64,000 nt of DNA from an uncultured Candidatus Saccharibacteria bacterium (lineage in GTDB: Bacteria; Patescibacteriota; Minisyncoccia; Phycocordibacterales; SBAW01): positions 240,746 through 304,745 of the forward strand of contig CAZTNI010000001.1 in assembly GCA_964615415.1 (NCBI GenBank), read 5' to 3'. The notes beneath the pieces are model-generated. The model was not told the origin of the DNA. It did not search any database and saw only the letters and a program-made list of their open reading frames with translations. A program made the position numbers and the translations under genes. Shown here piece after piece: positions 41,019 through 55,836 of this stretch (position 1 is its first letter; each line of letters starts with the position of its first letter).

Positions 41019-44000
41019 ATGAATTTCTTCCCACTTCTTATCGCGGGCCCAGGCAAAATAGCACTTCGATTGATGGGAATGATTCTTGTCGTCTCATTTT
41101 TTCTTTCTCCTCTTGCCCCTGTGTTTGCGCAAGAAGCAGATCCTGGAGCTGGTAGCGAAACTCCTGTTGCTGAAGAGTTGCTAACTGAAGAACCCTCTGA
41201 AGCAGATACTTCTACAGAAACTTCTGAAGAACCTGTGGTTGAAGAATCTGATCCAACGCCAACTGACCCAACAGAAGAAACTTCTTCTGAAGAAGTTTCA
41301 GAGTCGGAAATTTCCGAACTCACTGAAGAATCGGAAGAAGACTCACTACTAGAAGAAGAACTTGAACCAGAAGAAGACTCGCTGATGTCATCATCAGGAG
41401 GAGATCAGGGTACTGGAGAAGCTGTCGATTATGCAGCAGCTGGTGCACAAGCGAAGGTGGATGCATTCGGAGCTCTTGTGCAGAAAATTCAAATTGAAGT
41501 TCCTCCTGGTCGCAACGGTCTTCAGCCAGATTTATCTCTGCTTTACAACAGTCTGCAGTATGAAGATGGAAGTCTGGTGGGTTTTGGATGGGGGTTAACG
41601 ATACCGTATATTGAACGACTCAATCGCACTGGTGTTGATCGTTTGTATACCGATAATTATTTTTCGTCCTCTATGTATGGAGAATTAGCCTCCACGAGTG
41701 TCCCAGGTGAATATCGTCCAAGAACTGAAAACGGAGATTTTGTTAAATTTGTTTTTCAAAATAATATCTGGACTGCGTACGATAAACAGGGAACACAATA
41801 CAAATACGGTTCGACTACAGGATCTCAGGTGTACGACACTGCAAGCTCAACACAGGTTGGTGTATGGATGCTGCAGGAAGTTCGCGATACAAACAACAAC
41901 TACATAAAATATAACTATCAAAAAAGTGATAATCAGATTTATCCTTCGACGATTATCTATACAGGCAACGAATCTACCGACGGCATCTTCTCTGTAAGCT
42001 TTTCAAGACAAACACGACCAGATCCTATCTTTAGCTACAAGTATGGTTTTTTGGTAGAGACAAAAGATAGAATAAACCAAATTACAGTAGCGGTGAGTAG
42101 CTCGACTGTCCGCTCATACGCGCTTGCGTATACCTCCGGAAATAACGGGTATCGTTCTATGCTTTCTTCTGTAACTGAAACGTATGTTAATCCTGATGGT
42201 ACTAGTGTTGCGTATGCGCCGTGGCAGTTTGCTTATACTAACCAAACGCTTTCCTTTACTGATCAGGTTGAGAAAGAGGAAGGGGGATATAGGTCGCCAG
42301 CTTTCGTGCGTACCGACTTAAATGGCAACGGTCTTCTCGATATTGTCGCTTCATTTGTTGACTGGTCTCCTGCAGTGCAGAAAAATCTCCGTGTCATAAA
42401 CAATGGAAACTTTTCATTTACTAGCTCGGGTACGTTCTCTCCGGGATCAACAGACGTTCAAGTTACTTGGGCAAATGCTAATCCTTCTCCTAGTTGGCTT
42501 GTTTCCAGCGATCCTGGTGTGCGCCTCATGGACATAAATGGTGATGCGCTGCCAGATGTCGTGCAAAGTTATGTGTGCCAAGTAACATGCTCGACCTCAA
42601 TACAACAATATTTCTTGAATCTTGGTAACGGTCAGTGGCAGTCTACTGCAGCTACTACAACAGGATGGAATTATATTGTACGTGACCAACCAGGCACTTC
42701 TATTCCGCACGCCACAATCGCTATCATTGGAAACGTAAACGGCGACACTGTAGATGATATTTTTCCATACGAAGTAAATTATTTCGCAAGTACAGGTGGA
42801 GGTTCTCCACGTTGGACAAGCAACCAAGGTCAGCTGGTAGATCTTAACCATGACGGATTGGATGATGCATTTGCTCGTTTCGGTACAACTGCTTCTACAA
42901 GTATTAATAGAGGGGGGACAATAGGAATTACCACTGCATCAACCTCATTCAGCTACACAGCGACCTTTAATGGGCCGAGCGCCTATGAAGACAACGTAGA
43001 CAAAGGAATTCGCATCATGGATATAAATAATGATGGTCTTCCGGACCTCGTACGCTCATATCTTTTCTCGGGCGGTTACTCTTCTCATGGTGATGGCCAG
43101 TATGTGCCGCAAGATACAAGTTCTTCGACGCAAATTTATATAAACACAGGTGTTGGGTGGACCAGAATGCAAAACCCTCCAGCTATTCCCGTTATCTCAA
43201 ATCCTTCAAGTCAAAGTGGTTTTTGGACAGGTGCTCAACTTATTGAAGCGGTGTGGGACCAGGATGGTGATGGAGATGCAGAGATTGGTACCTATACCAA
43301 TAACATGAGTCGACAAGATTTGTTGAAGCAAATTACTTTGCCGACGGGAGGGTATGTGTATGCAACAAGTACTCCTACAACACAGCAATTCACCGGTTCT
43401 CAGGCTCACCACCCGAATTCTGTAGTACCTGTGTGGACTGTGTCGGAAATTACACACGATGATGGAAATGGTACACGAGAGACCAGTCGCTATTCTTACA
43501 AAGACGGAACACTCTGGTATGGTGGCATTAATAATCGAAAATATGCAGGCTTCGCAAGCACTACAGAGTCATACTATGGTCTTACTACCAAGTATTACCA
43601 TCAGGGAGATGAGACAGATTCTTCTCGTGGGGAATACCAAGATTCATTTGCAAAGATTGGCAAAATGTATCGTGTAGAGAGAACTAATAACGATGGAGTG
43701 GTGTATGCAAAGACTATCTACAAATGGGATCAGGCTACCACTACGTACGGAAATGTGTTCGCAAAATTAGTGCAGAAAGTAGACATGGAGTACAACGGCG
43801 ACGGTACTCACAAGGATCGTGCAGAGACATATACCTACGACAATGCCTCGGGCAATCTTACTGAAAAGAAGGAGTGGGGAGAGGTGACAGCATCAGACGA
43901 TGGAAGTTTCTCTGACACTGGGAGCGACATATTTGTCACAACGTACACCTATGCAACAGTAAACGCTTCTTCTACTGTTAGTCTTTTAGCGTCACAGTTA

Positions 44001-47000
44001 AAAACAGATCAAGGCGCTAATACTGTTAATGAGTCGAAGTTCTATTACGATTCGCAGTCATTTGGCTCCGCAACAGTAGGTAACCTTACAAAAGCAGAAA
44101 AGAGAATTAACCCAACTACTTTTGCAAGTACTACTAAGACATACAACAGCTACGGTTTACCGACCCAACAAAAGGATGAGAATAATAACGCTACTACGTA
44201 TGTATACGATGCGTTTAATCTCTACCCTGCAACCTCTACCAATGCCCTAAGTCAAAGTACAAAATATCAGTACAACTATGCGCTGGGCAAACTTGCTACA
44301 ACTACTGACTCAAATAATCAGACCTGGGTTAAAAAGTATGACGGCCATGGCCGTTTGCTTGAAGTGCAAGTGCCTGACCCTGCAACCTCAACTGCGCGTG
44401 TAATAAAGACTACCTACACGTATACCGATACTCCGCTTGCTGTGTCGGTAAAAAAGAGTTCGTACCTCGACGCTACTAACATAGTAGATTCTTACACGTA
44501 CTACGATGGTTTGGGGCATGCGATTCAAACCAAACAAGAAGCAGAAGGGGGAGAGTGGATTACTAAAGATGTAAGTTACAACGTGCGTGGTCGAGTATTC
44601 ACAGAAACACTTCCGTATCCAACAACAAATTACGTAAAGAGTTCTCCTACTGCTACTACAACCCTGTATACCAACTACATGTATGATCCGCTTAACCGAG
44701 TAACAGAATCACACACGGTCGTTGGCACTACAACAAATACGTATGATGACTGGAAGAAGACAGTTACGAACCCGCTTGGCATTGCGAAGTCATTCTATAA
44801 CGATGCGTACGATAATCTAGTTCGTGTAGATGAGACTAATAGCGGCTCTACTTATACAACGTTATATACGTGGGATGGAAATGGAGCGCTAACGGGTATA
44901 ACGGATGCTCTCAGTAACATACGCTCGTTTACGTACGACATGTTGGGTCGTCGCACTCAGGCAACAGACCTGCGTGCTTCTGGAGACGGCACATACGGTA
45001 CGTATACATATACCTACGATCCGGCGGGGAACATGAAGTCTAAGGTAACTCCGGTTGGGTCAACCATTAACTACACCTACGATGCGCTTAATCGCCTCAA
45101 GACAGAAGATTATACAGGTCAGGCAGGCACAGAAACCACCTATACCTATGACGCATGTACGCTCGGTGCAGGGAAGTTGTGCGTGGCAAGCAGTACTGCT
45201 TCAGTCGTGGGGTATGCATATACCCCAGCGGGTCTTGTTAAGACTGCAACCACAACTGTGCTAGGCACGCCAACCGTATTTACTACATCGAGTACATATG
45301 ATCGGCAGGGAAATCAGACAACTCTTACATACCCTGACGGTATGGAAGTGAAATACACCTATAATGCGGGTGGCTACATAGAAACCGTTCAGAAGAAAGA
45401 GGCGAGCGAAGGATCATTCTCAAACATAGTGTCTAACTTTAATTACTCACCCGTTGGTCAAGTAAGTCGAACCGAGTATGCAAATGGAGCGGTAACTACC
45501 AATACGTATGATCCTGCCACTCTCTACAGACTCAGCAATAAACAAACTATTCTCGGTGGTTCGCAGCAGGCACAAAACATCAGCTACAGCTACGACGCTT
45601 TGGGAAATATTTTGCAAGTTACCGATGCGTCAAATACGGCAGCTGCAAAAACGGTTAACTACTCGTACGACGACTTGTCTCGCCTTGTTACTGCATCTAC
45701 CACCAACGCAACAAGTAGTCCGAACTATAGATACACATATGCATACAATGCTCTGGGTAATATCACGAACGGTCCACTCGGGGTCTACACATACGCAGGT
45801 ACGAACTATGCAAACCCGCATGCAGCAACTGCTATAGCGACAACTTCAGGAGGTGGAGGAGGCGTTGCGACAACCACGACTCATACAGTATTTGCCGACG
45901 CCCTTACCCCAGGATGGAACGATTGGTCATACAATGCGGTACTCGACCTTAACGCAACTACCACGTACGCAGGAAGCAAAGCTATCAAGGTTACCTACTC
46001 AGTCGCTTGGGGTGGTTCATATTTGCAAAAGACTGCTGGAATCCAAGTTGGTACCTCTACTGCGCTTCAACTCGCCTTGCGTTCAACAAGTTCATCGCCT
46101 GACGTTACCATCGATATATATGGTACCAACGACGCGTATCTTGGATACGCTGACCCTACTGACTATATCGGCGGTCCTATTGCTGCTAACACGTGGTATC
46201 TACTTACTATCCCGTTTTCAGATTTTGGCGCCACTTCAACTATCAGTGGCATCGTAGTTGCACGCGACACTCCAGGTGTTCTCTATATCGATGAATTAAA
46301 GACTGTTGCCACATCTACAGGCGGAGGAGGTTCTGTGGCAACTACCACGCTTGCATACGATGCGAACGGCAACCTTACCTCAGACGGTACATTTACCTAT
46401 ACATGGGATTATCTCAACCGCATGACTCAGTCTGGTAACGGTACTGCCACATCAACCTATGCATACGATCAAGATGGTAATCGCGTAAAAATAGTTGAAG
46501 CAGGCGTCACCACAATCTTCCCAAACAAGTTCTACAACGCAATGCTTGGTGGTGCTGGCACTACTACAAAGCACATATATGCGGGAGACATGCTCCTTTC
46601 TACGATAGAGAATACAAATACTGCCGCTGCGACAACCACTACACACACGGTGTTTACCGACGCACTTGCTGCGGGCTGGAACGACTGGTCGTATAACGCT
46701 ACGCTCAACGTTAACGAAACTGCAGTTGTCTACAGCGGTGCTAAGTCAGCAAAGATCACATACAGCGCACCATGGGGCGGAGCATACATACAAAAAACGG
46801 GTGTAAATGTATCAACCTCTACGGCACTGCAGTTCGCAATCCGCCAACCTGTCACAACTGTTGATGTCGACCTCGATATCTATGGCGCAAACGATCAATA
46901 CCTTGGATACGTTAATATTGAGAATTTTGTGCCCGGAGGTGTGCTCCTTTCCAATACATGGCAGGTGGCAACGATACCGCTGTCAGCTATGGGCGCAACT

Positions 47001-48059
47001 TCTACGATCACGGGTATTGTGTTTGCGCGAGATGCAACAGGTACTCTGTATTTGGATGATATAAAATTCATCGCAACCTCTACCTCAGGAAGCCCTGCAA
47101 CATCAACGGTCCGCTACATCCATACAGATCATCTTGGTGGTACCAACGTTGTCACAAATGCGAGTGGTGCGGTGGTAGAAACAATTGACTACTATCCATA
47201 TGGAGAGACTCGTCTTGATGCGAAGGTTGGGACTTATGGAGGAGAAAAGAATAAATATGCGGGTACTGAGTATGACGCAGGTAGTGGTTTGAACTACATG
47301 CAGGCACGTTATCAAAGCCCAACTCGCGGAAACTTCATATCGCAGGATCCGGTGTTCTGGGAGATTGATATTACTAATGATGGTAAAGCAGTTCTCTCAA
47401 ACCCTCAACTTCAAAATTCATACAGTTATGCTGGCAATAATCCAATCGTAAGTAAAGATCCATCTGGAAGATTCCTAGACACCATTCTCGATTTAGGATT
47501 TATAGCTTACGATGTATACAAAGTTGGCCAGGCGGCCTTCACTGGCGGAAATGTTGGTGAGCAGTTAGGATACTTAGGGCTTGATGTAGCTGGGGCAGCC
47601 GTACCATTTGTCACAGGTGCGGGAGTAGCTGCTAGAGGAGTTAAAGCTGCTAATGCGGTAGCAGATGCAGCCGGCGGCGCCAACAAAGCAGGTAATGCTG
47701 CTCAGGCGGCTAATACCGCAGTAAAATCACTACCGGACTCGACGTTGGTCTGCAGAGGAGGAGGTTGCTCGGTGGAAAGTTTTATTAAGGGCAGTAATGA
47801 AGGAAGGGCGGGTCTTAATCCAAGTCCAACAACTCCTCTTACTGGGGTATCAGTAAATATGGGGGGTTCAAAAAATGCACTTATTAGCAATTTGCCTGGT
47901 GACTACCCTAAAGCAGGTTTTACATTCACCAATCAAATACAAAAACTTGGTGGCAATGCAGTATCTAGCCCTTCTCTTAATAATCCTTTCCACGGTCTAA
48001 TCAACGGCCTCAGTGCCCAGCAATTGAATAATATTTTTAAAGTAGAAAAGATAAAATAA
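41019..48059 (+). CDS. Giant secreted Tc-toxin/RHS-type polymorphic toxin: SpvB/TcB-like N-terminal domain, FG-GAP-like region, YD/RHS repeats, RHS repeat-associated core, unassigned C-terminal toxin domain
   Basis: 2346-aa ORF with a signal peptide and an acidic linker. The SpvB motif (…GLQPDLSLLYNSLQYEDGSLVGFGWGLTIPYIERLNRTGVDRLY…) is followed by many YD repeats (YTYDALNRL, YSYDALGNI, YAYDANGNL, YAYDQDGNR). The RHS core reads RYIHTDHLGGTNVVTNASGAVVETIDYYPYGE…ARYQSPTRGNFISQDPVFW. Confidence 0.85.
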   Translation: MNFFPLLIAGPGKIALRLMGMILVVSFFLSPLAPVFAQEADPGAGSETPVAEELLTEEPSEADTSTETSEEPVVEESDPTPTDPTEETSSEEVSESEISELTEESEEDSLLEEELEPEEDSLMSSSGGDQGTGEAVDYAAAGAQAKVDAFGALVQKIQIEVPPGRNGLQPDLSLLYNSLQYEDGSLVGFGWGLTIPYIERLNRTGVDRLYTDNYFSSSMYGELASTSVPGEYRPRTENGDFVKFVFQNNIWTAYDKQGTQYKYGSTTGSQVYDTASSTQVGVWMLQEVRDTNNNYIKYNYQKSDNQIYPSTIIYTGNESTDGIFSVSFSRQTRPDPIFSYKYGFLVETKDRINQITVAVSSSTVRSYALAYTSGNNGYRSMLSSVTETYVNPDGTSVAYAPWQFAYTNQTLSFTDQVEKEEGGYRSPAFVRTDLNGNGLLDIVASFVDWSPAVQKNLRVINNGNFSFTSSGTFSPGSTDVQVTWANANPSPSWLVSSDPGVRLMDINGDALPDVVQSYVCQVTCSTSIQQYFLNLGNGQWQSTAATTTGWNYIVRDQPGTSIPHATIAIIGNVNGDTVDDIFPYEVNYFASTGGGSPRWTSNQGQLVDLNHDGLDDAFARFGTTASTSINRGGTIGITTASTSFSYTATFNGPSAYEDNVDKGIRIMDINNDGLPDLVRSYLFSGGYSSHGDGQYVPQDTSSSTQIYINTGVGWTRMQNPPAIPVISNPSSQSGFWTGAQLIEAVWDQDGDGDAEIGTYTNNMSRQDLLKQITLPTGGYVYATSTPTTQQFTGSQAHHPNSVVPVWTVSEITHDDGNGTRETSRYSYKDGTLWYGGINNRKYAGFASTTESYYGLTTKYYHQGDETDSSRGEYQDSFAKIGKMYRVERTNNDGVVYAKTIYKWDQATTTYGNVFAKLVQKVDMEYNGDGTHKDRAETYTYDNASGNLTEKKEWGEVTASDDGSFSDTGSDIFVTTYTYATVNASSTVSLLASQLKTDQGANTVNESKFYYDSQSFGSATVGNLTKAEKRINPTTFASTTKTYNSYGLPTQQKDENNNATTYVYDAFNLYPATSTNALSQSTKYQYNYALGKLATTTDSNNQTWVKKYDGHGRLLEVQVPDPATSTARVIKTTYTYTDTPLAVSVKKSSYLDATNIVDSYTYYDGLGHAIQTKQEAEGGEWITKDVSYNVRGRVFTETLPYPTTNYVKSSPTATTTLYTNYMYDPLNRVTESHTVVGTTTNTYDDWKKTVTNPLGIAKSFYNDAYDNLVRVDETNSGSTYTTLYTWDGNGALTGITDALSNIRSFTYDMLGRRTQATDLRASGDGTYGTYTYTYDPAGNMKSKVTPVGSTINYTYDALNRLKTEDYTGQAGTETTYTYDACTLGAGKLCVASSTASVVGYAYTPAGLVKTATTTVLGTPTVFTTSSTYDRQGNQTTLTYPDGMEVKYTYNAGGYIETVQKKEASEGSFSNIVSNFNYSPVGQVSRTEYANGAVTTNTYDPATLYRLSNKQTILGGSQQAQNISYSYDALGNILQVTDASNTAAAKTVNYSYDDLSRLVTASTTNATSSPNYRYTYAYNALGNITNGPLGVYTYAGTNYANPHAATAIATTSGGGGGVATTTTHTVFADALTPGWNDWSYNAVLDLNATTTYAGSKAIKVTYSVAWGGSYLQKTAGIQVGTSTALQLALRSTSSSPDVTIDIYGTNDAYLGYADPTDYIGGPIAANTWYLLTIPFSDFGATSTISGIVVARDTPGVLYIDELKTVATSTGGGGSVATTTLAYDANGNLTSDGTFTYTWDYLNRMTQSGNGTATSTYAYDQDGNRVKIVEAGVTTIFPNKFYNAMLGGAGTTTKHIYAGDMLLSTIENTNTAAATTTTHTVFTDALAAGWNDWSYNATLNVNETAVVYSGAKSAKITYSAPWGGAYIQKTGVNVSTSTALQFAIRQPVTTVDVDLDIYGANDQYLGYVNIENFVPGGVLLSNTWQVATIPLSAMGATSTITGIVFARDATGTLYLDDIKFIATSTSGSPATSTVRYIHTDHLGGTNVVTNASGAVVETIDYYPYGETRLDAKVGTYGGEKNKYAGTEYDAGSGLNYMQARYQSPTRGNFISQDPVFWEIDITNDGKAVLSNPQLQNSYSYAGNNPIVSKDPSGRFLDTILDLGFIAYDVYKVGQAAFTGGNVGEQLGYLGLDVAGAAVPFVTGAGVAARGVKAANAVADAAGGANKAGNAAQAANTAVKSLPDSTLVCRGGGCSVESFIKGSNEGRAGLNPSPTTPLTGVSVNMGGSKNALISNLPGDYPKAGFTFTNQIQKLGGNAVSSPSLNNPFHGLINGLSAQQLNNIFKVEKIK

Positions 48060-48060
48060 T

Positions 48061-48513
48061 ATGAAAATAAAAAATGAATCAGATTTTGTAAATGCAGATA
48101 GTAAATTGAATCTGCGGAAAATCTCTTCTAATGAAATAGAGATAACCGACGTCTATGACATCTGGGATGGGCCTTTAAGTGGTAGCTGTCTCTGGGAAAA
48201 TAAAGATTATTATTTTTTCTCTTTTGATCAACTTGAGGATGATAAATCTGGTGATCGCTGGCCAAGAAAATACATTTTAGTTAGCTTAGATTCTGAGCAA
48301 AAGCAAACTGAAGAAGAATTAAAAAACCTTTATTCGGCTTTGAAAAAAGGTGAATTTACCGCCGAAGAATATAGCAACAAATTAGAAAGAATTCCAAAGT
48401 TACAAATAGAAAATAAGCAAATTGTTGGATGGTTTGATTCTGAAGATGTTGAAAAAAATGGAACTCCAACAAGATTCATGCAATCCTATTTTTCGTGGAA
48501 AGAAAAGAATTAA
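48061..48513 (+). CDS. Candidate cognate immunity protein of the RHS C-terminal toxin
   Basis: 150-aa ORF starting 2 nt after the RHS stop. It is markedly AT-rich relative to the RHS gene. That is the typical position and composition for an RhsI-type immunity gene. Confidence 0.55.
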   Translation: MKIKNESDFVNADSKLNLRKISSNEIEITDVYDIWDGPLSGSCLWENKDYYFFSFDQLEDDKSGDRWPRKYILVSLDSEQKQTEEELKNLYSALKKGEFTAEEYSNKLERIPKLQIENKQIVGWFDSEDVEKNGTPTRFMQSYFSWKEKN

Positions 48514-48608
48514 TTCTCTATTTTTGCTTCCATAAAACGCCCATACTGTTACAAACTTTATGGGGTCTGACCCCAATTCCAAATCTAAAGAATAATAAAA
48601 AATAAATT

Positions 48609-48797
48609 ATGCATATTAAAATTGATAAGGATGTAGGTACGGCTTATATTTACATAGCGGACAACCCAGAAGATCTAAAAGGCTCTGTCCGTTCCGAGCC
48701 AGTCAACTCAGATCTGATTATTGACTACACTCCAGACGGAAAATTATTTGGAATTGAAATTCTTAACCTGAAACTTCTCGATCTTGGTGAGAAATGA
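48609..48797 (+). CDS. DUF2283-like small protein (toxin-antitoxin associated family)
   Basis: MHIKIDKDVGTAYIYIADNPEDLKGSVRSEPVNSDLIIDYTPDGKLFGIEILNLKLL resembles DUF2283 (antitoxin partner of DUF4258). Confidence 0.5.
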   Translation: MHIKIDKDVGTAYIYIADNPEDLKGSVRSEPVNSDLIIDYTPDGKLFGIEILNLKLLDLGEK

Positions 48798-48818
48798 AAG
48801 CTAATTGAGAGGCTAAGT

Positions 48819-49144
48819 ATGATTAATAATTCACGGGATAAATATATTAATCTTGCAGTTCAGTATGGTGAGTATAAAAAGAATGGAGAAGCTGAACTTG
48901 CCAACAAGGTACATCAGCAACTCTCTGAAACATCCGACGCAATAAAAAAATTGATCCAGAGGGTTTTGATTTCATTGCTAGTCCTATGAATCACCCTGAA
49001 CCATTTGTAAGACTGTGGGCCGCAACTGATTCAAAAGATTATAAACCAAAGGAGGCGAGAGCAACTTTACGGGAACTCAAATACAACAAAGACGTAGCGG
49101 GGCTAGATGCTTGGGCGTTGTTAAGCATGTGGGGAGAGGAATAA
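48819..49144 (+). pseudogene. Frameshifted (or phase-variable) ~105-aa gene split at an A7 homopolymer
   Basis: Frame 1 (ATG 48819) reads MINNSRDKYINLAVQYGEYKKNGEAELANKVHQQLSETSDAIKK and terminates after the A7 run at 48943-48949. The -1/+1 frame continues as …IDPEGFDFIASPMNHPEPFVRLWAATDSKDYKPKEARATLRELKYNKDVAGLDAWALLSMWGEE* (stop at 49142-49144). Confidence 0.5.
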
Positions 49145-49253
49145 AAAACTTCTGAAATACAGGTTGTAGAGTTGGGGTCAGGGTCCCTTCAATGACAAAA
49201 TCTATATTGCCAGGCTCTTGCGACTGATGGTGCGGTAAAAGTGTAAAAGAAAT

Positions 49254-49288
49254 CGCCCCGACACTTCATGTGTCGGGGCTGTTTTTTA
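49254..49288 (-). terminator. Rho-independent terminator immediately downstream of the minus-strand gene 49286-49837
   Basis: CGCCCCGACAC-TTCA-TGTGTCGGGGC hairpin with flanking T/A tracts. Confidence 0.7.
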
Positions 49289-49837
49289 TCCTGCTTTTTC
49301 GACTGCGGCGCGGGCAGTTTCTTCCATCGTCTTGTAGATAGGGAAATCGTACCCCAGAAGGAGCGTAGTGTTACGCTCTACCATGTCGAGTCCGGAAAAT
49401 CCTTCCTCGCCGCCTATAACGACACGAGTCTCTTTTCGGTAGAACATGTGCGCTCGCCACTCGCCAAGTTCGCCGTAGGAGTCGCGGCCGTAGGGGCCGG
49501 CTTCCGGTGCACGGGGCTCGCGTTGCTCTTCTGCCCAAAAGAGGATGCAGCCTCGCGGGGTGTGCCACGCGGCCCGTGCAAGGTAGTGCCGCTCCCAGTC
49601 GAGCTGTCGATCAAAGATGTCCGCACCCTCTTGCAGGAAGTAGCCAGCAAGTGGGTGTGTGTTATTCCACCTTGCGGGGCAGGCTATGACGCAGTTGCCA
49701 TCCGTCGCTTGGCGCAGGTGCACGACCATTTCGTGTTGCCAGTCGCCGCCACCGCGGATAGGCCCGCCAAGGAAGAAGAAGGGAAGGTCTTCGAATTCCC
49801 GAAGGTCGGGACAATATTTCGGAACAATAATGCGCAT
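49286..49837 (-). CDS. Nucleoside 2-deoxyribosyltransferase-like (Rossmann/SLOG-type) protein, GC-rich
   Basis: N-terminal FFFLGGPIRGGGDW motif typical of the nucleoside 2-deoxyribosyltransferase/LOG-like fold. GC content is much higher than the flanking AT-rich genes. The family assignment is tentative. Confidence 0.45.
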   Translation of the reverse strand: MRIIVPKYCPDLREFEDLPFFFLGGPIRGGGDWQHEMVVHLRQATDGNCVIACPARWNNTHPLAGYFLQEGADIFDRQLDWERHYLARAAWHTPRGCILFWAEEQREPRAPEAGPYGRDSYGELGEWRAHMFYRKETRVVIGGEEGFSGLDMVERNTTLLLGYDFPIYKTMEETARAAVEKAG

Positions 49838-49917
49838 GTGTTCTCCTTTTGTATGTACCTAGCGGCACTATACCGAAAGAGAAGTGTATTTGCCAGGCGT
49901 ATACTTACACTCAATAT

Positions 49918-50139
49918 ATGAGGACGATAAGCGTGCGCGTAACGGCGGGAGCAAAGAAAGAAAAGGTGGAGGAACTTGCAAACGGCCGGCTTGCTATCGC
50001 TGTTAAAGAAAAGCCCGAGCAAGGCAAAGCAAACGAACGGGTGTTGGAGTTGGTTGCAGCACACCTTAAAGTGCCGCGTAAAAAAGTAAGCATTACCCGC
50101 GGCAGCAAAAGCCCGTCTAAAATAATTACCGTCCGATGA
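49918..50139 (+). CDS. DUF167/YggU family protein
   Basis: MRTISVRVTAGAKKEKVEEL…LAIAVKEKPEQGKANERVLELVAAHLKVPRKKVSITRGSKSPSKIITV matches UPF0235/YggU. The start was trimmed to the ATG at 49918. Confidence 0.6.
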   Translation: MRTISVRVTAGAKKEKVEELANGRLAIAVKEKPEQGKANERVLELVAAHLKVPRKKVSITRGSKSPSKIITVR

Positions 50140-50201
50140 ACTTTGCGGGACCTGACCCAATTCCCAGTCTCAACAAATAGGTCTACAATAAAGAAACTTT
50201 C

Positions 50202-50450
50202 ATGGAATTAGTATTACAAATAGGCATTCTTGTGATAGGAGGCTGGTTTGCTTATATAGGAGGTCGGACTTTGTTCTCAAAAAAATACTACGTATCAAAG
50301 ATTGAAAATATAAAAGGTAAAACGGTTGATAATGCATATAAAAATCTGCCACGCTGGAGAATATGGTTTACTCGGTACGATTATTCGACACAATGGCTGA
50401 TTCTTGGTGTCGGGCTACTCACTCTTTTTGTCTTTAGTTTATTTAAGTAA
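50202..50450 (+). CDS. Small 2-TM membrane protein (orphan immunity-like)
   Basis: 82 aa, AT-rich. First of three tandem small TM genes. Confidence 0.4.
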   Translation: MELVLQIGILVIGGWFAYIGGRTLFSKKYYVSKIENIKGKTVDNAYKNLPRWRIWFTRYDYSTQWLILGVGLLTLFVFSLFK

Positions 50451-50456
50451 ATTCTT

Positions 50457-50723
50457 ATGGATGTTCAACAACTTATACTCACTATCCTTGGAACTGGTTT
50501 AGTCATATTTTGCTACTTTAACTGGGTTAAAGCCAAAGATAAGGAATTTCTATTCTTAGGAGTATCTGCTCTGATAGGTTTGTTATTTGCGGGTGCAAAA
50601 TATCTTCCTGTTTCTTCTGAATTTAATCAAGCAAGGGCCGGCATAGGAGTTATCGTTCTTTCAATTCTGTTCCTTTTAGTTTTACGAATGGGATATAAGT
50701 TGTGGTTCAAAAAAAGAAAATGA
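50457..50723 (+). CDS. Small 2-TM membrane protein (orphan immunity-like)
   Basis: 88 aa, AT-rich. Confidence 0.4.
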   Translation: MDVQQLILTILGTGLVIFCYFNWVKAKDKEFLFLGVSALIGLLFAGAKYLPVSSEFNQARAGIGVIVLSILFLLVLRMGYKLWFKKRK

Positions 50724-50750
50724 TCCATATTTAAGTTATTAACATATCTT

Positions 50751-51002
50751 ATGTTGGATTCTTTTTTAATCGTATTGGTCCAGGCTGGAATCTCAGTGAT
50801 TGTAGGAGTAATGGCAATTTTTTACAGGAAACGCCTGACTCGTGAATTTACAGCAAAATTTATCCAGGTATATGGAAATTTTTTCAATTCTAAAAAAGTT
50901 TTTACTTCAAAGTTCTTCAATGATTATTTAGAAGTGGGTTTTGTAGTATTTGGAATTTGCGCCTTGATATTTGCTTTTTTCAATATTGTTAGGTCGATAT
51001 AA
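50751..51002 (+). CDS. Small 2-TM membrane protein (orphan immunity-like)
   Basis: 83 aa, AT-rich. Confidence 0.4.
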   Translation: MLDSFLIVLVQAGISVIVGVMAIFYRKRLTREFTAKFIQVYGNFFNSKKVFTSKFFNDYLEVGFVVFGICALIFAFFNIVRSI

Positions 51003-51015
51003 AATATTTAAGTCG

Positions 51016-51339
51016 ATGAGCAAGACTTTTAGCGAAAAGGTGGTGGAACTCGCACTTTCTGTACCGCCTGGGCGGGTGACTACTTATGGCCGGATTGCTA
51101 TTGCGGCAGGGGGAGGAAGCATGGCCTCGCAAAGCATTTCTAATATTCTTTGGCGCGCGCAGCAGGAAAGAGGAATAAAAAATATACCCTGGCACCGGAT
51201 AGTCTATGCCGATGGAAAAGTGTGGCTCGACGAAGAGCATAAAAAGAAGAGACTGGCGTTGTATAAGAAGGAGAAAATTGTCTTAGATAAAAATAATAGG
51301 ATAGAAAATTTCGTAGATAAACTTTGGGAGTTTAAATAA
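51016..51339 (+). CDS. Alkyltransferase-like protein (ATL; Ogt C-terminal DNA-binding domain with Trp replacing the active-site Cys)
   Basis: VTTYGRIA…PWHRIV: the Ogt PCHRV motif carries W instead of C, which is diagnostic of ATL DNA-damage sensors. Confidence 0.7.
   Translation: MSKTFSEKVVELALSVPPGRVTTYGRIAIAAGGGSMASQSISNILWRAQQERGIKNIPWHRIVYADGKVWLDEEHKKKRLALYKKEKIVLDKNNRIENFVDKLWEFK
51301..51339. repeat. Left copy of a 39-bp imperfect direct repeat flanking the DUF2726 gene (right copy 51901-51939)
   Basis: ATAGAAAATTTCGTAGATAAACTTTGGGAGTTTAAATAA aligns with CCAGAAAACTTCGTAGACAAACTTTGGAAGTTTAAGTAG at about 32 of 39 positions. Both copies span the stop codon of the preceding gene. Confidence 0.75.
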
Positions 51340-51364
51340 AGAAATATGCTAGGCTAGGAGCTAT

Positions 51365-51916
51365 ATGGATGAGCTACAGATTATATCCTCAATTTCGCCA
51401 CAAACTCTCGGCATTTTAATTTTTGGAATAGTGATATTTGTTGCCGCTGTGTTGTTGGGATTGTCTGTAAAGGAAAAAGTAAACACACCGGTTACCAAAA
51501 TACCAAGCTTTTATAAGAAGAAAGAATATCTTTTTGACTCCATCTCAGAATTTAATTTACATAAAACTCTTGTAGAACTTTTTAGCGATCGTTTTTATAT
51601 TTTCTCTCAAATTCAATACAGTCACCTGGTCGAACCTAAACCAGATCTTTGGTGGGAAATGCGAAGACATAGAAGCAGAATTGATAGAAAATCCGCAGAT
51701 TTTGTCTTGTGTGACAAAGAACGTGTTGTACCACAGCTCGTGATCGAATTAGACGGCAGTAGTCATGAGCTAGAAAGGAAGCAAGAAAGAGATCAATTTA
51801 TAAACGAGACTATGGAAGCAGTGGGTCTTCCTATCCTGCATCTATATACGAATCGATTGAATAAGGACTACGTAAAAGAGGAGGTGGAAAGAATATTGTC
51901 CCAGAAAACTTCGTAG
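51365..51916 (+). CDS. DUF2726-type (PD-(D/E)xK/Vsr-like) nuclease domain protein with N-terminal TM
   Basis: ADFVLCDKERVVPQLVIELDGSSHE…RDQFINETMEAVGLPILHL. Confidence 0.6.
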   Translation: MDELQIISSISPQTLGILIFGIVIFVAAVLLGLSVKEKVNTPVTKIPSFYKKKEYLFDSISEFNLHKTLVELFSDRFYIFSQIQYSHLVEPKPDLWWEMRRHRSRIDRKSADFVLCDKERVVPQLVIELDGSSHELERKQERDQFINETMEAVGLPILHLYTNRLNKDYVKEEVERILSQKTS

Positions 51917-52007
51917 ACAAACTTTGGAAGTTTAAGTAGTAAACCCTATCTTCCTCGGCGTGACACAAGGCTCTGTAGGGGAGCGGAGGATGGAACGTTC
52001 GTAGCAC

Positions 52008-52856
52008 TCACTGCACTTGCTTCAATGTTTCAATTCTTTTTTTCCAAACAGACACGTACTCTTTTTTTGTGTTCTCGCAAGAGGATAACCAGTCTCTAAA
52101 ATCTCTCTTTTGTCCTTTGTCCAAAATATATCTATCAATGTATTCAATTAAAAAAGCCGAGGTCCTTAGACACATGCTTATGATCCAAAACCGTTCATTG
52201 TAAGATTCTTCTTTATAGTAGTAAGGATTTCCGTGAAGTATCTCAGAAATGCTTGAATATATTTCATATGTTCTTTCAATTCCAAAAACTTTTATAGAGT
52301 ATGAAGAGAATCGATTCATATTCGCAGGAGTCAAAAGAATTTCTTTTTGTGCAGCAAAAAGTTTATTATCTCTCATCCAATTTTTTGATAATAATTCAGG
52401 ATTTTGTGGAAAATCTGGTTTTGCTCTTGCGATGAAATCTTTATAGAGCTTAAAAGTCTCATCGTAATAAGGATATTTTCCATTACTATTTTTCAACGTC
52501 TTTGCAATCAATAGAGAATGTGCGATGCAGAAAATTGCTTTGTCGTCGTTACTCGGGCAGTTAATTTCTAGATGTACAAAGTTGGCGTAAATGTCCAACA
52601 GAGTGCGTACATTTGGTAACAAATAAATATATTTCTTTTCATCTTCACTTTGCGCTTCAACACCAAGAAAATCTAAAATTTCTTTGTATCGTTTCAGTGC
52701 TCGTATCTGATATATCCGAATAGCAGAGTCGGCAGCTGAAATAGTAAAAGCCTCCTCTTGAAGAGGAGTGAATACCTTAATCCTTTCATCAAAAAGAATA
52801 GAGGCTTGTTTGATAAGGTCTAGTTGGCTATCAATTACTTCCTTGTCTGACTTCAT
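52008..52856 (-). CDS. Hypothetical protein, AT-rich orphan (282 aa)
   Basis: Long ORF on the minus strand with strongly AT-biased composition. No recognisable motif. Confidence 0.5.
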   Translation of the reverse strand: MKSDKEVIDSQLDLIKQASILFDERIKVFTPLQEEAFTISAADSAIRIYQIRALKRYKEILDFLGVEAQSEDEKKYIYLLPNVRTLLDIYANFVHLEINCPSNDDKAIFCIAHSLLIAKTLKNSNGKYPYYDETFKLYKDFIARAKPDFPQNPELLSKNWMRDNKLFAAQKEILLTPANMNRFSSYSIKVFGIERTYEIYSSISEILHGNPYYYKEESYNERFWIISMCLRTSAFLIEYIDRYILDKGQKRDFRDWLSSCENTKKEYVSVWKKRIETLKQVQ

Positions 52857-53016
52857 ATCGGCGCTTTAGGAGACCGTCCCATAATACATTAATTCTGTTC
52901 TGATCTCGTTCCACGCGGCGCAGTATGTTAATTTTGCTATACTTCACTCATGCAAAAGATACACCTTTCCACTTTTATAAATGCTTTGCGGAAAGGGTAG
53001 TAGATTAAAAAATAAA

Positions 53017-53047
53017 GGACCGCGCTGGGCGGTCCTTTTTCTTTGGT
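53017..53047. terminator. Bidirectional Rho-independent terminator
   Basis: AAAGGACCGCGCTGGGCGGTCCTTTTTCTTT. Confidence 0.7.
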
Positions 53048-53052
53048 TGCTG

Positions 53053-53406
53053 CTAGCTCGCAACCTGAAATGGAGAAGGGGTTTGCAGGCGCTCTAGTTC
53101 TTCAGGTTTAATAAGCCCCATCAACAATTTGCCCTGCAGTATCATGACGCTGTGGCCATGACTAAAGTAGGTTTCTTCCTTTCTTGTGCCGCCCGGGTTC
53201 CACTGCTTCTGGAAGAATGTTACTTCTATATGCGCACGTGTTTTATCTAATCGGACAAAGTGAATGGTCCCATGCTTCCTAAAGTGCAGCTTCTCTCCGG
53301 GCTGCAGTTTCCAGACGGAGCTGGTGGGCCCTATCCAGAGATAGAAGACTCCATTGATGTACGCCAGTGTAGGGAAGTGCGTGTACCTGCGCTTCTTGTT
53401 TGCCAA
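53053..53406 (-). CDS. Hypothetical protein (117 aa, beta-rich; possible PUA-like fold)
   Basis: TTG start at 53406, preceded by an AAGGAGGG SD. Confidence 0.5.
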   Translation of the reverse strand: MANKKRRYTHFPTLAYINGVFYLWIGPTSSVWKLQPGEKLHFRKHGTIHFVRLDKTRAHIEVTFFQKQWNPGGTRKEETYFSHGHSVMILQGKLLMGLIKPEELERLQTPSPFQVAS

Positions 53407-53475
53407 TTGACCCTCCTTGGGTCGCCTAGGGTTGGAACGGAATCCGTGCGTACTATGCCATAGGTAGCATATGCT

Positions 53476-53515
53476 GACAAATAGAAAATATGTGGTAGTG
53501 TAGCGGCAGATTCAA
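53476..53515 (+). promoter_or_regulatory. Promoter/5'-UTR module TGACAAA-N-TGTGGTAGTGTAGCGGCAGA, duplicated at 54068-54108
   Basis: TGACAAATAGAAAATATGTGGTAGTGTAGCGGCAGATTC aligns with TGACAAACATAAAAATTGTGGTAGTGTAGCGGCAGACTTC at about 35 of 40 positions. Confidence 0.6.
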
Positions 53516-53537
53516 AACAAGTCCTTTGGAGGTACCC

Positions 53538-54029
53538 ATGATCGACATTCGTTCTGACTCGGCCGACCCGCGTGCGGCAAGGTTGAGCAACTTTACCGAG
53601 CGGCACTTCATCCTTGATGGTGTGCTGTGCAACTCGCTCGAAGGCTTCTTGCAGGGGCTTAAGGCAGAAGCTCTTGAAGTGCAGTGTGCTATTTGCAAGC
53701 TGGTGGGTATCGATGCAAAACAGGCTGGTAATGTGCTTGTAGTCAGAGATCCCCATTTTCTGTATTGGGAAGATGATGCTGTTGCTCGCGATGAAGTTGG
53801 CTACTTTGAACTGCTGACAAGAGCCTACGATGCGGCGTACGACCAGGACCCGACTTTTCGGGAAGACTTGCTTGCAACGGGGCACGAAGAGTTGCGCTAC
53901 ACGGTGGGCAGGTATGATCCTCTTGCAACGGTTCTTACCGAAACAGAATTTCTCTACCAGCTGTACCGTCTGCGTGCCCGAGCACATCGCGAACCAGTGG
54001 CCCAGCAGGAGCTGCCCGGCATTCGTTAA
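53538..54029 (+). CDS. NADAR (YbiA/DUF1768) family protein
   Basis: LSNFTERHFILDGVLCNSLEGFLQGLK matches the NADAR signature. GGAGG SD 5 nt upstream of the ATG. Confidence 0.6.
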   Translation: MIDIRSDSADPRAARLSNFTERHFILDGVLCNSLEGFLQGLKAEALEVQCAICKLVGIDAKQAGNVLVVRDPHFLYWEDDAVARDEVGYFELLTRAYDAAYDQDPTFREDLLATGHEELRYTVGRYDPLATVLTETEFLYQLYRLRARAHREPVAQQELPGIR

Positions 54030-54042
54030 ATGTGGTAGGTAT

Positions 54043-54072
54043 AAAGGCCGCTCCTCCCAGGGCGGCCTTTTT
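54043..54072 (+). terminator. Rho-independent terminator (variant of the repeated family)
   Basis: AAAGGCCGCTCCTCCCAGGGCGGCCTTTTT. Confidence 0.65.
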
Positions 54073-54133
54073 GCTGACAAACATAAAAATTGTGGTAGTG
54101 TAGCGGCAGACTTCTTTACCACGGAGAAACGCC

Positions 54134-54505
54134 ATGTTTGCTAAGTTTGGTGAATTGCTGCTGTATCTCGTGTTCGGGCCTCAGTACTTCTTTTTCCGGA
54201 TCGTGCGGCTGTTGGTGCGTATGGTTGTACCGAAATGGAGTCGTCGCGTTTCGGAGTTTGAACAGACAGAGATGTACGAGCTGCTAGAAGAGCGTGCAAT
54301 ATGGAGCATTTTTCTTTTGTGGTTCATCGTGGCTTTGGTGCTTGCAGTGATGCTCGGGGCACATGCATCGATACCTCTGGTCCCTGTGGTCATGTTCCAC
54401 ATGGTAACTGGGTTGGGGGTTTACATCTTTGCTCGGCACAAGCGAGTAGAGCTTATTCGCAGGGGAGTACGGAATGACCCGGTACGCACTCGCTCTGTTT
54501 CCTGA
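54134..54505 (+). CDS. Hypothetical membrane protein (123 aa)
   Basis: Preceded by the duplicated promoter module. Three TM helices. Confidence 0.45.
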   Translation: MFAKFGELLLYLVFGPQYFFFRIVRLLVRMVVPKWSRRVSEFEQTEMYELLEERAIWSIFLLWFIVALVLAVMLGAHASIPLVPVVMFHMVTGLGVYIFARHKRVELIRRGVRNDPVRTRSVS

Positions 54506-54680: not shown

Positions 54681-54759
54681 GGGACTTTTTCTTTACGTGA
54701 CAAAGGTTAATAGACGTGGTATTATACAGATAGACGAATCCCACCAAAGGAGACTACCC

Positions 54760-55068: not shown

Positions 55069-55072
55069 CCCC

Positions 55073-55814: not shown

Positions 55815-55836
55815 TTCCTCGTTCCCGCGATACTAC

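What the first reader, a model, noticed from the sequence alone, without database searches (positions are those of the whole stretch)
48514..53470. Low-GC mosaic accessory island downstream of the RHS gene (orphan immunity-like and defence-like small genes)
Between the RHS locus and the 53.5-kb cluster the composition switches repeatedly. AT-rich small genes alternate with one GC-rich gene (49286-49837). The island contains:
- a DUF2283-like gene;
- a frameshifted gene;
- a nucleoside-2-deoxyribosyltransferase/SLOG-like gene;
- a YggU homologue;
- three tandem 82-88-aa two-TM proteins (50202-51002);
- an ATL gene;
- a DUF2726 nuclease gene;
- a 282-aa AT-rich orphan on the minus strand.
Arrays of small TM or immunity-like genes and nuclease/TA fragments downstream of rhs genes are typical of orphan immunity islands. 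The three tandem TM genes are good candidates for orphan immunity proteins. Whether the whole island forms a defence system is not established.
Basis: partly seen in the sequence, partly recalled or inferred. Interest (0 to 1): 0.65.

Follow-up and report, generated by a model that had tools for sequence, protein, structure and literature searches.

The report
RHS-linked patchwork of accessory genes
Downstream of a giant RHS toxin gene in a Patescibacteria (CPR) genome, foreign low-GC genes are interleaved with resident genes; one small membrane gene is a stranded "orphan" antidote to another strain's RHS toxin, and nothing indicates a phage-defence system.

Summary
GC and GC3 switch repeatedly between 47.85 and 53 kb, and most listed genes were verified: DUF2283, a frameshifted gene, YggU, ATL and DUF2726. 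The nucleoside-deoxyribosyltransferase-like call is supported only indirectly.

- It is not one island. YggU has native composition and lies beside the PPIase gene in 10 relatives. The GC-rich NDT-like gene sits in the same neighbourhood in a relative that has no RHS or low-GC block there.
- Low-GC DNA forms at least two blocks. The first starts inside the RHS toxin tip, not at 48,514.
- TM82 (50202-50450) is a real orphan-immunity candidate. Its 73%-identical homologue lies 12 nt downstream of a related RHS gene with a different toxin tip. TM88 and TM83 could not be tested.
- The "282-aa orphan" belongs to a family of about 90 clusters distantly related to DUF5677. The frameshifted gene is DUF2019-like.
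- No orphan RHS fragments, recombinase, PADLOC hits (except a generic methyltransferase match outside the finding) or phage signal were found.

Unexplained extras are a 36-nt duplication of the atl 3' end around the DUF2726 gene, and a three-copy motif found only at the module junctions.

Verdict: a new member of a known kind, of moderate-to-low interest.

The parts
41019..48059 (+). RHS polymorphic toxin gene, 2346 aa. It has an N-terminal signal-like segment and SpvB, FG-GAP and RHS repeats. The core ends at DPSGRF (nt 47457-47474). A PT-TG-like linker follows, then a low-GC toxin tip from about 47850.
   Evidence: (RHS_repeat E=3.6e-26, SpvB E=9e-14). The GC drop at 47.8-48.1 kb is.
48061..48513 (+). 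150-aa gene that starts 1 nt after the RHS stop codon. By position it is the cognate immunity gene. No family match.
   Evidence: GC3 0.26.
48552..48590 (+). Junction repeat copy (i), core GGGGTCTGACCCCAA, about 39 nt. It aligns at 77% with copy (iii).
   Evidence: (D16).
48609..48797 (+). DUF2283-family small gene, 62 aa.
   Evidence: E=1.6e-10.
48819..49144 (+). DUF2019-like gene split into ORFs of 56 and 52 aa at an A7 run (48944-48950). The run sits in A_AAA_AAA register. A -1 slip, or restoring one A, gives a 108-aa protein.
   Evidence: (DUF2019 E=0.0015 across the junction). The same sequence is present in independent contigs.
49169..49187 (-). Junction repeat copy (ii), inverted and partial.
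49255..49279 (.). Bidirectional intrinsic terminator between the converging DUF2019-like and NDT-like genes.
   Evidence: (I14).
49286..49837 (-). GC-rich 183-aa gene, a distant relative of PF15891 (nucleoside 2-deoxyribosyltransferase-like). Probably a resident gene, not island cargo.
   Evidence: (70 homologues).
49918..50139 (+). YggU/DUF167 gene, 73 aa. Native composition; a core gene.
50139..50176 (+). Junction repeat copy (iii). It begins at the YggU stop codon and lies upstream of TM82.
50202..50450 (+). TM82, a two-TM protein and orphan immunity candidate. Its homologue lies immediately 3' of a different RHS toxin tip in L173.
50457..50723 (+). TM88, a three-TM protein of unknown family. 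Immunity is inferred only from position.
50751..51002 (+). TM83, a two-TM protein of unknown family. Immunity is inferred only from position.
51016..51339 (+). ATL (alkyltransferase-like, PWHR motif), 107 aa. Near-native composition.
51303..51338 (+). Direct repeat copy 1, the last 11 codons plus stop of atl (ENFVDKLWEFK*).
   Evidence: (D8).
51365..51916 (+). DUF2726 (Vsr/DUF559-type PD-(D/E)XK nuclease fold) gene with one N-terminal TM helix, 183 aa.
51903..51938 (+). Direct repeat copy 2, 32 of 36 nt identical to copy 1. In the atl frame it encodes ENFVDKLWKFK*, a relic atl 3' end.
52008..52856 (-). 282-aa all-helical protein, a distant relative of DUF5677. A stand-alone accessory gene.
53014..53038 (.). 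Bidirectional terminator downstream of the 117-aa ORF.
   Evidence: (I23).
53053..53406 (-). 117-aa ORF with native-like GC and no family match. Coding status is uncertain; a public gene call prefers a 63-aa ORF on the plus strand.

Best explanation
The stretch is a variable hotspot, not a single island. At least two blocks of foreign low-GC DNA sit on either side of two resident genes, the NDT-like gene and YggU.

**Block 1, about 47.85-49.2 kb.** This is the business end of an RHS polymorphic-toxin locus.
- It carries the exchangeable toxin tip and its cognate immunity gene (150 aa, coupled 1 nt after the RHS stop).
- Two small trailing genes follow: DUF2283, and a DUF2019-like gene that needs a -1 shift to be read through.

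**Block 2, about 50.2-52.9 kb.** It opens with three small membrane-protein genes.
- The first, TM82, is an orphan immunity gene. In another genome its homologue is the gene directly behind a related RHS toxin with a different tip.
- Here TM82 would protect the cell, at the membrane, against that toxin when neighbours deliver it. No matching toxin is encoded in this genome region.
- TM88 and TM83 are inferred to be further immunity genes, only from their position, tight spacing and shared composition.

**The rest of block 2** is unrelated accessory cargo, with no demonstrated link to RHS or to phage defence.
- ATL, a damage-sensing alkyltransferase-like protein.
- A membrane-anchored DUF2726 nuclease gene, inserted into the atl 3' end.
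- A DUF5677-like helical protein.

**Shown:** the composition, the gene identities, the TM82-RHS adjacency in L173, the synteny of YggU, and the absence of defence and mobility genes.
**Inferred:** the immunity function, the direction and number of transfer events, and the roles of TM88 and TM83.
For: **Composition.** GC3 is 0.26-0.35 in the low-GC genes, against 0.49 +/- 0.046 in background genes. YggU is 0.51, ATL 0.46 and the NDT-like gene 0.64.

**YggU is resident.** It lies 0.4-0.6 kb upstream of PPIase in 10 related loci, with only an HPF gene between them. In the window the two are 6.2 kb apart.

**NDT-like gene.** In relative L163 its homologue (51% identical) lies within a few kb of MliC, YgjP, PPIase and LexA, and no RHS or low-GC block is there.

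**RHS architecture.**
- The core ends at DPSGRF.
- Its similarity to the RHS in L173 continues through the core end and a PT-TG-like linker, then stops.

**TM82.**
- It has two homologues, 73-74% identical.
- In L173 the homologue starts 12 nt after the RHS stop and is followed by an RHS-core-like fragment, SWDYRNRL.
- DNA homology is confined to the gene itself, which has three different sets of flanks.

**Accessory status.** All low-GC proteins are singletons at 90% identity. Apart from one 29%-identical DUF2726 homologue in L100, they are absent from the related loci.

**No defence or phage signal.**
- PADLOC gave nothing, except a generic methyltransferase hit outside the finding.
- PHROGs matched only DUF2726, to an unknown-function family.
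- None of the three proteins tested (TM82, the 282-aa protein, DUF2726) has a relative in viral contigs.

**Insertion scar.** A 36-nt repeat brackets the DUF2726 gene.
Against: - Only one informative context exists for TM82. The second homologue's contig has no upstream sequence.
Their immunity roles are untested.
- No orphan RHS-CT fragments occur downstream, unlike classical Rhs orphan arrays.
- TM82 is separated from the RHS gene by two resident genes. Simple displacement of an older toxin tip does not explain its position.
- The closest PPIase relatives (72-77% identical) lack YggU upstream. Synteny in this group is generally poor, so 'inserted between adjacent core genes' rests on more distant relatives.
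- The NDT-like gene has atypically high GC and varied contexts elsewhere. It may itself be horizontally acquired.
- No genome closer than about 77% PPIase identity was available, so strain-level presence or absence could not be tested.
Confidence: 0.6

Rival explanations
1. One horizontally acquired genomic island or integrative element covers the whole of 48.5-53.5 kb. It was inserted in a single event downstream of the RHS gene.
For: - Composition is atypical over most of the range.
- Direct repeats (i) and (iii), 77% identical over about 39 nt, lie 1.6 kb apart. A 36-nt direct repeat brackets DUF2726.
Against: - YggU has native composition and conserved linkage to PPIase.
- The NDT-like gene is in the same neighbourhood in L163.
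- Composition switches among low, high and native GC at least six times.
- No integrase, transposase or tRNA target was found.
- The repeats bracket the resident genes, not the low-GC DNA.
Confidence: 0.08
2. The genes form, or belong to, an anti-phage defence island. Candidate parts are the DUF2726 nuclease, the DUF5677-like protein, the NDT/SLOG-like protein and TA fragments.
For: - One homologue of the 282-aa protein sits beside two N6/N4 DNA methyltransferases.
- DUF5677 was reported enriched near serine recombinases in defence-rich contigs of Bacillota (preprint 10.1101/2025.10.07.681051).
- DUF2726 has a nuclease fold.
Against: - No PADLOC hit for any protein inside the finding, nor for 53 of 54 members of the 282-aa family.
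- The DUF5677 ORF tested in that preprint was not among the ORFs that reduced plaquing.
- The genes lie on different strands, have different composition, and do not recur together in any retrieved context.
Confidence: 0.07
3. The low-GC genes are native, fast-evolving, lineage-specific small genes typical of CPR genomes. Their AT-richness reflects weak selection rather than foreign origin.
For: - CPR genomes carry many small membrane ORFans; other small TM genes lie nearby at 38.9, 54.1, 54.8 and 55.9 kb.
- All low-GC genes are singletons at 90% identity.
Against: - GC3 is 3-5 SD below native genes. Neighbouring small TM genes have GC3 of 0.58-0.85, so small size or membrane composition does not explain the low values.
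- TM82 and the 282-aa gene have 63-74% identical homologues in other contigs with unrelated flanks. This indicates movement as gene-sized units.
- An insertion scar flanks DUF2726.
Confidence: 0.15
4. The region is a degraded prophage or phage-derived cargo.
For: - DUF2726 matches phrog_14167 and hypothetical genes of small Vibrio phages.
- A Phage_30_3 family gene lies just downstream, at 53538-54029.
Against: - No PHROG hit for 9 of 10 proteins.
- No structural, replication or integrase genes were found.
- No relatives in viral contigs for TM82, the 282-aa gene or DUF2726.
- No viral fold match for the 282-aa model.
Confidence: 0.03

Closest known systems
Rhs / CDI loci with orphan toxin-immunity modules (E. 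coli, Salmonella, Dickeya; Poole et al. 2011, PMC3150448; Koskiniemi et al. 2014, PMC3967940)
   Same: - A full-length rhs gene with a conserved core, a DPxG boundary and a variable toxin tip.
- An immunity gene immediately downstream, and lower GC in the tip and immunity module.
- A downstream gene (TM82) whose homologue is the immunity-position gene of a different RHS tip.
- The related locus L173 shows the classical pattern: RHS, then immunity gene, then an rhs-core fragment.
   Different: - The window has no orphan rhs-CT fragment or rhs-core homology downstream.
- The orphan immunity candidate is separated from the rhs gene by two resident genes.
- The host is a Patescibacteria (CPR) bacterium, and no secretion system is apparent in the window.
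- The RHS protein has an N-terminal signal-like segment, not a PAAR or VgrG link.
Orphan immunity / acquired interbacterial defence (AID) gene clusters of Bacteroidales (see PMC12247911, PMC10470768; the original AID description is recalled from memory, Ross et al. 2019)
   Same: Immunity genes are kept without the cognate toxin. They are arranged in tandem, have foreign composition, and are shuffled as gene-sized cassettes with different flanks.
   Different: - The array is very small, one supported gene plus two inferred.
- There is no associated recombinase or mobile element.
- The toxin system is RHS with unknown delivery, not T6SS.
Integration hotspots or 'plasticity regions' between conserved flanking genes in small genomes
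   Same: A conserved scaffold (MliC, LexA, NDT-like, YggU, PPIase, YgjP) carries highly variable fill of mixed composition.
   Different: No integrase or tRNA anchor was found. Insertions appear gene-sized, and some carry short flanking repeats.

Membership tests
Rhs orphan toxin/immunity array | A full-length rhs gene with a conserved core that ends in a PxxxxDPxGL-type motif, followed by a variable C-terminal toxin | tested here: met
   RHS_repeat E=3.6e-26 and SpvB. DPSGRF lies at residue 2147, nt 47457. Similarity to the L173 RHS ends after the PT-TG-like linker.
Rhs orphan toxin/immunity array | Cognate immunity gene immediately downstream of the toxin tip | tested here: inconclusive
   The position fits: the 150-aa gene starts 1 nt after the stop and shares the low GC. 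It has no family match, and its function cannot be tested here.
Rhs orphan toxin/immunity array | Downstream orphan rhs-CT fragments that keep rhs-core homology | tested here: not met
   tblastn and blastn of the RHS gene against 48060-64000 gave nothing. The only DPxG[LRFW] regex match (DPEGF, 48954-48968) lies within the frameshifted gene and is not an RHS core end.
Rhs orphan toxin/immunity array | Downstream genes homologous to immunity-position genes of other rhs toxin tips | tested here: met
   Met for TM82 only. P0176 (73% identical) lies 12 nt after the RHS stop in L173.
AID-type orphan immunity island | Array of immunity genes associated with a recombinase or mobile element | tested here: not met
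   No recombinase, integrase or transposase domain was found in any ORF scanned between 35 and 56 kb.
Known anti-phage defence systems (PADLOC-DB 2.0) | At least one protein matching a defence-system model, with the system's partner genes nearby | tested here: not met
   No hits for the proteins inside the finding. The only hit nearby is a generic SAM-methyltransferase match to mad2, at 55170-55814, outside the finding.
Integrative genomic island | Integrase gene, insertion at a tRNA or gene 3' end with flanking direct repeats, and uniform atypical composition | tested here: not met
   No integrase was found, and there is no tRNA gene beyond 14.2 kb. Composition is not uniform. Short repeats exist but bracket resident genes or a single gene.
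PF15891 Nuc_deoxyri_tr2 (nucleoside 2-deoxyribosyltransferase-like) | Score above the Pfam gathering threshold, and a flavodoxin-like NDT fold | tested here: inconclusive
   The window protein has no Pfam hit. 20 of 50 homologues hit weakly, best E=8.3e-7. The family profile matches PDB 4mcj at E=0.29. The AF2 fold is flavodoxin-like, and the Foldseek PDB search gave no hit at E<=0.001, with an NDT structure only at rank 25.
ATL (alkyltransferase-like) | An O6-alkylguanine-DNA-alkyltransferase DNA-binding domain with the catalytic Cys of PCHR replaced | tested here: met
   DNA_binding_1 E=2.6e-12. The sequence reads IPWHRIV.
PF10881 DUF2726 | Score above the gathering threshold | tested here: met
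   76.4 bits against a cut-off of 24.7.
PF02594 DUF167 / YggU | Score above the gathering threshold | tested here: met
   68.3 bits against a cut-off of 30.9; TIGR00251 72.8 bits against 35.
PF10049 DUF2283 | Score above the gathering threshold | tested here: met
   41.4 bits against a cut-off of 23.
PF09450 DUF2019 | Score above the gathering threshold | tested here: inconclusive
   The joined protein scores 18.9 bits against a cut-off of 23.3. The match spans the frameshift junction, profile positions 7-87 of 105.
PF18928 DUF5677 | Score above the gathering threshold | tested here: inconclusive
   The window protein has no hit. 14 of 54 relatives hit, best E=9e-9.

The most novel reading that the evidence does not exclude
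The region is an immunity- and cargo-capture locus that works without a linked recombinase. Gene-sized cassettes would be inserted at a short junction element. That element is the three-copy GGG(N)CTGACCC(C)AA motif, found only at the module boundaries.

A second selfish element would operate in the same locus. The membrane-anchored DUF2726 (Vsr/EDxHD-type) nuclease gene would behave like a free-standing homing gene. It targets the 3' end of atl and carries a replacement atl tail, which leaves the 36-nt duplication.
Probability: 0.1. Interest if true: 0.6.

Novelty: new member of a known kind. Interest (0 to 1): 0.35.

Why it matters
Patescibacteria live attached to, or among, other cells, and little is known about how they fight or resist neighbours.

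This locus gives a concrete, testable toxin and immunity pair across two genomes: the L173-type RHS tip and TM82. It also shows that polymorphic-toxin logic operates in this group, including retention of orphan immunity genes.

Beyond that, the region is an ordinary variable hotspot. It does not reveal a new defence system.

Tried and rejected
**Strain-level presence/absence test.** The genome contigs and metagenome-contig scans with the flanking PPIase returned nothing closer than 77% identity. Only family-level synteny could be used.

**Exact look-up of a gene upstream of the RHS** found nothing on record.

**Fold identification of the 183-aa protein.** Only weak flavodoxin-like matches were found.

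**Sequence searches against PDB** found nothing for the RHS toxin tip, the 150-aa gene or the DUF2019-like protein.

**Paralogy of the three TM genes** is rejected. The best pairwise BLASTP E-value is 0.02.

**Orphan rhs fragments** were not found.

**ncRNA in the intergenic gaps.** Rfam gave only sub-threshold chance hits.

**Phage origin.** PHROGs and viral contigs were negative, apart from DUF2726 matching an unknown-function PHROG. A profile search of viral contigs with the 282-aa family could not run because no conserved stretch was available.

**Integron-like reading of the repeats at 53.5-56.3 kb** is rejected. The repeats are ordinary units of a terminator hairpin plus a promoter ((G/C)TGACAAA, 17 nt, extended -10) in front of each gene.

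**DUF2283 and DUF2019 as immunity families.** The literature searches retrieved no such description.

Full report
**Source and background.**
- The window comes from a Patescibacteria (CPR, Paceibacteria-type) genome. The nearest species representative by the PPIase gene at 56346-57041 is a Candidatus Kaiserbacteria MAG, at 76% identity.
- The same DNA occurs on public contigs from several sequencing runs. L001 is identical over 41365-61916. L002, from another run, spans 47404-52856 with one SNP. The junctions described below are therefore not assembly chimeras.
- 24 long genes outside the region have GC 0.486 +/- 0.020 and GC3 0.49 +/- 0.046.

**Checking the observation.**
- The composition switches as described.
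  - Low-GC genes (GC3 0.26-0.35): the 150-aa gene behind the RHS gene, DUF2283, the first half of the frameshifted gene, the three TM genes, DUF2726 and the 282-aa gene.
  - The minus-strand gene at 49286-49837 is GC-rich (GC3 0.64).
  - YggU (0.51) and ATL (0.46) look native.
- Pfam and NCBIfam confirm DUF2283, DUF167/YggU, the ATL DNA-binding domain (with PWHR instead of PCHR) and DUF2726.
- The frameshifted gene is real.
  - ORFs 48819-48989 and 48986-49144 join at an A7 run (48944-48950).
  - The run sits in the register A_AAA_AAA.
  - A -1 slip, or one extra A, yields a 108-aa protein that matches DUF2019 across the junction, E=0.0015, below the Pfam cut-off.
- The GC-rich gene is coding on the minus strand.
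  - It has 70 homologues of 172-220 aa.
  - Its AF2 model has pLDDT 96.6.
  - 20 of 50 relatives weakly match PF15891, nucleoside 2-deoxyribosyltransferase-like.
  - The fold is flavodoxin-like, but Foldseek gives no strong PDB match.
- Four corrections are needed.
  1. The low-GC DNA begins inside the RHS toxin tip, at about 47.85 kb.
  2. TM88 has three TM segments, and the three TM proteins are not paralogues.
  3. The 282-aa protein is not an orphan.
  4. A 117-aa minus-strand ORF and two bidirectional terminators were not listed.

**It is not one island.**
- YggU lies 0.4-0.6 kb upstream of the PPIase gene in ten related loci (L010, L011, L012, L015, L087, L090, L093, L098, L099, L100).
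  - In every case only a ribosome-hibernation-factor (HPF) gene lies between them.
  - In the window the two genes are 6.2 kb apart, and HPF is absent from all 64 kb.
- In relative L163 (60% GC) the NDT-like homologue (51% identical) lies about 1 kb from MliC. It is within a few kb of YgjP, PPIase and LexA, all of which flank the region in the window. That neighbourhood holds no RHS gene and no low-GC block.
- So the NDT-like gene and YggU are best read as resident genes that separate two low-GC blocks.
- Caveats:
  - The closest PPIase relatives lack YggU upstream.
  - The NDT-like gene has other contexts elsewhere.
  - Its GC is unusually high, so it may itself have been transferred from a high-GC relative.

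**Block 1 belongs to the RHS locus.**
- The RHS protein (2346 aa; SpvB, FG-GAP and RHS repeats) ends its core at DPSGRF (nt 47457).
- The 150-aa gene starts one nucleotide after the RHS stop codon and shares the low GC of the toxin tip. This is the usual signature of an exchangeable toxin and immunity module.
- Neither the toxin tip nor the 150-aa protein matches any family or solved structure.

**Testing the orphan-immunity idea.**
- TM82 has two homologues, 73-74% identical.
- In L173 the homologue starts 12 nt after the stop codon of an RHS gene.
- That RHS gene aligns with the window's RHS through the core end (NSYSYA.NNP...DPxG) and a PT-TG-like linker. Its terminal roughly 75 residues are unrelated.
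- An RHS-core-like fragment (YSWDYRNRL) begins about 30 nt after the TM82 homologue. L173 therefore shows the classical arrangement of main gene, immunity gene and orphan fragment.
- DNA homology among the three TM82 loci is confined to the gene itself, with different flanks each time.
- This is direct contextual evidence that TM82 is an immunity gene for a toxin tip this genome does not encode at this locus. Because TM82 is an integral membrane protein, that toxin probably acts at the membrane; this is an inference.
Their assignment rests on position only: gaps of 6 and 27 nt, the same strand and the same composition.
- The window has no orphan rhs fragments.

**The remaining genes.**
- TM83, ATL and DUF2726 follow with gaps of 13 and 25 nt, and no predicted terminator lies between them.
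- A 36-nt direct repeat brackets the DUF2726 gene.
  - Copy 1 (51303-51338) is the end of atl, encoding ENFVDKLWEFK*.
  - Copy 2 (51903-51938) overlaps the DUF2726 stop codon and, in the atl frame, reads ENFVDKLWKFK*.
  - The copies are 32/36 identical. Adding the stop-codon change just outside the repeat, four of the five differences are synonymous or stop-to-stop, and the flanks are unrelated.
  - The simplest reading is that the DUF2726 gene entered the atl 3' end together with a replacement tail.
- DUF2726 belongs to the Vsr/DUF559 group of PD-(D/E)XK nucleases. That group includes a homing endonuclease (PMC3424549).
- Two facts argue against a simple homing model. The protein has an N-terminal TM helix. 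A similar TM-anchored homologue lies near YggU in L100.
- The 282-aa protein belongs to a family of 91 representative clusters. 14 of 54 relatives match DUF5677.
  - Its AF2 model is all-helical, with pLDDT 95.7.
  - It has no PDB or viral fold match.
  - Its homologues are stand-alone genes in unrelated accessory contexts: once beside two DNA methyltransferases, and once among small genes that include a NADAR gene.

**Defence, phage and mobile-element readings.**
- PADLOC gives no hit for any protein inside the finding. Only one of 54 members of the 282-aa family gives a weak hit.
- In a 2025 preprint a DUF5677 ORF was selected for testing but was not among the ORFs that reduced plaquing.
- PHROGs matches only DUF2726, to a family of unknown function.
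- The viral-contig collection holds no relatives of TM82, the 282-aa protein or DUF2726.
- No integrase, transposase or recombinase was found in the ORFs scanned between 35 and 56 kb. No tRNA gene lies nearby.

**Unexplained features.**
- The motif GGG(N1-3)CTGACCC(C)AA occurs three times: 48562-48576 (+), 49172-49187 (-) and 50147-50160 (+).
  - It occurs nowhere else in the window, nor in 2.1 Mb of fetched loci.
  - The two direct copies align over about 39 nt.
  - All three lie at composition junctions: after the 150-aa gene, after the frameshifted gene, and at the YggU stop codon.
  - They overlap weak promoter-like matches, so they may be shared promoters of captured cassettes or recombination sites.
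- The atl repeat pair and a 39-nt duplicated promoter around the Phage_30_3 gene (53472-53510 and 54072-54110) both have a spacing of exactly 600 nt.
- A stereotyped terminator, GCCGCTCC-loop-GGAGCGGCTTTT, occurs only at 40.10, 40.62, 55.07, 55.84 and 56.29 kb. These positions lie on both sides of the RHS gene plus the low-GC stretch.

**Verdict.**
- It is wrong to treat the stretch as a single island, and there is no support for a defence system.
- This is a new member of a known kind: an RHS locus with retained orphan immunity, embedded in a variable hotspot, in an under-studied phylum.

Noticed in passing
window 51303-51338 and 51903-51938: A 36-nt direct repeat brackets the DUF2726 gene. 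Copy 2 is a relic atl 3' end (ENFVDKLWKFK*) that differs from the live copy almost only at synonymous positions. This suggests the nuclease gene inserted into the atl 3' end and brought a replacement tail with it.
   Followed up: partly
window 48552-48590 (+), 49169-49187 (-), 50139-50176 (+): A three-copy local motif, GGG(N1-3)CTGACCC(C)AA, lies exactly at the GC-switch junctions. It is absent from the rest of the window and from 2.1 Mb of related loci. Its role (promoter or recombination site) is unknown.
   Followed up: partly
window 48944-48950: The frameshift site is an A7 run in canonical -1 slippery register (A_AAA_AAA). The DUF2019-like gene could therefore be expressed by programmed or transcriptional slippage rather than being a pseudogene. 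The sequence is identical in independent contigs.
   Followed up: partly
window 53472-53510 and 54072-54110: A 39-nt duplicated promoter-like sequence (90% identical, with the last 20 nt exact) precedes both the Phage_30_3-family gene and the next gene. The spacing is exactly 600 nt, the same as for the atl repeat pair. This coincidence is unexplained.
   Followed up: partly
window 40095-40129, 40620-40650, 55073-55107, 55837-55866, 56290-56322: A stereotyped terminator, GCCGCTCC-loop-GGAGCGGCTTTT(T)CTTTT, occurs five times in the window. All copies sit in the GC-rich small-gene cassettes on either side of the RHS gene plus the low-GC stretch.
   Followed up: partly
L173 2-1509: A related contig carries an RHS C-terminus with a different toxin tip, then the TM82 homologue 12 nt downstream, then an RHS-core-like fragment (YSWDYRNRL). 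This is a classical orphan-module arrangement in a CPR-like genome.
   Followed up: yes
L010, L011, L012, L015, L087, L090, L093, L098, L099, L100 (between YggU and PPIase): A ribosome hibernation factor (HPF/RaiA-like) gene sits between YggU and PPIase in all ten syntenic relatives. It is missing from the entire 64-kb window.
   Followed up: partly
window 45876-46330 and 46638-47090 (RHS residues about 1620-1770 and 1874-2024): The RHS protein contains two copies of a roughly 150-aa domain (TTHTVF[AT]DAL...WNDWSYNA...) inserted near the end of the repeat shell. A duplicated stretch of RHS repeats separates the two copies.
   Followed up: no
window 40190-40615: A lone PRA-CH (HisI-type phosphoribosyl-AMP cyclohydrolase) domain gene, GC3 0.75, sits in a GC-rich cassette just upstream of the RHS promoter region.
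   Followed up: no
window 53538-54029: A Phage_30_3 family gene (E=6.9e-36), with native-to-high GC, sits in a string of single-gene cassettes. Each cassette has its own terminator and a (G/C)TGACAAA-type promoter.
   Followed up: no
window 38200-40650 and 54700-55850: Several genes flanking the region have unusually high GC3: NUDIX 0.65, response regulator 0.67, PRA-CH 0.75, a 102-aa TM protein 0.85 and a methyltransferase 0.67. The whole 38-56 kb neighbourhood is therefore a patchwork of high-GC and low-GC genes, not only the flagged stretch.
   Followed up: partly
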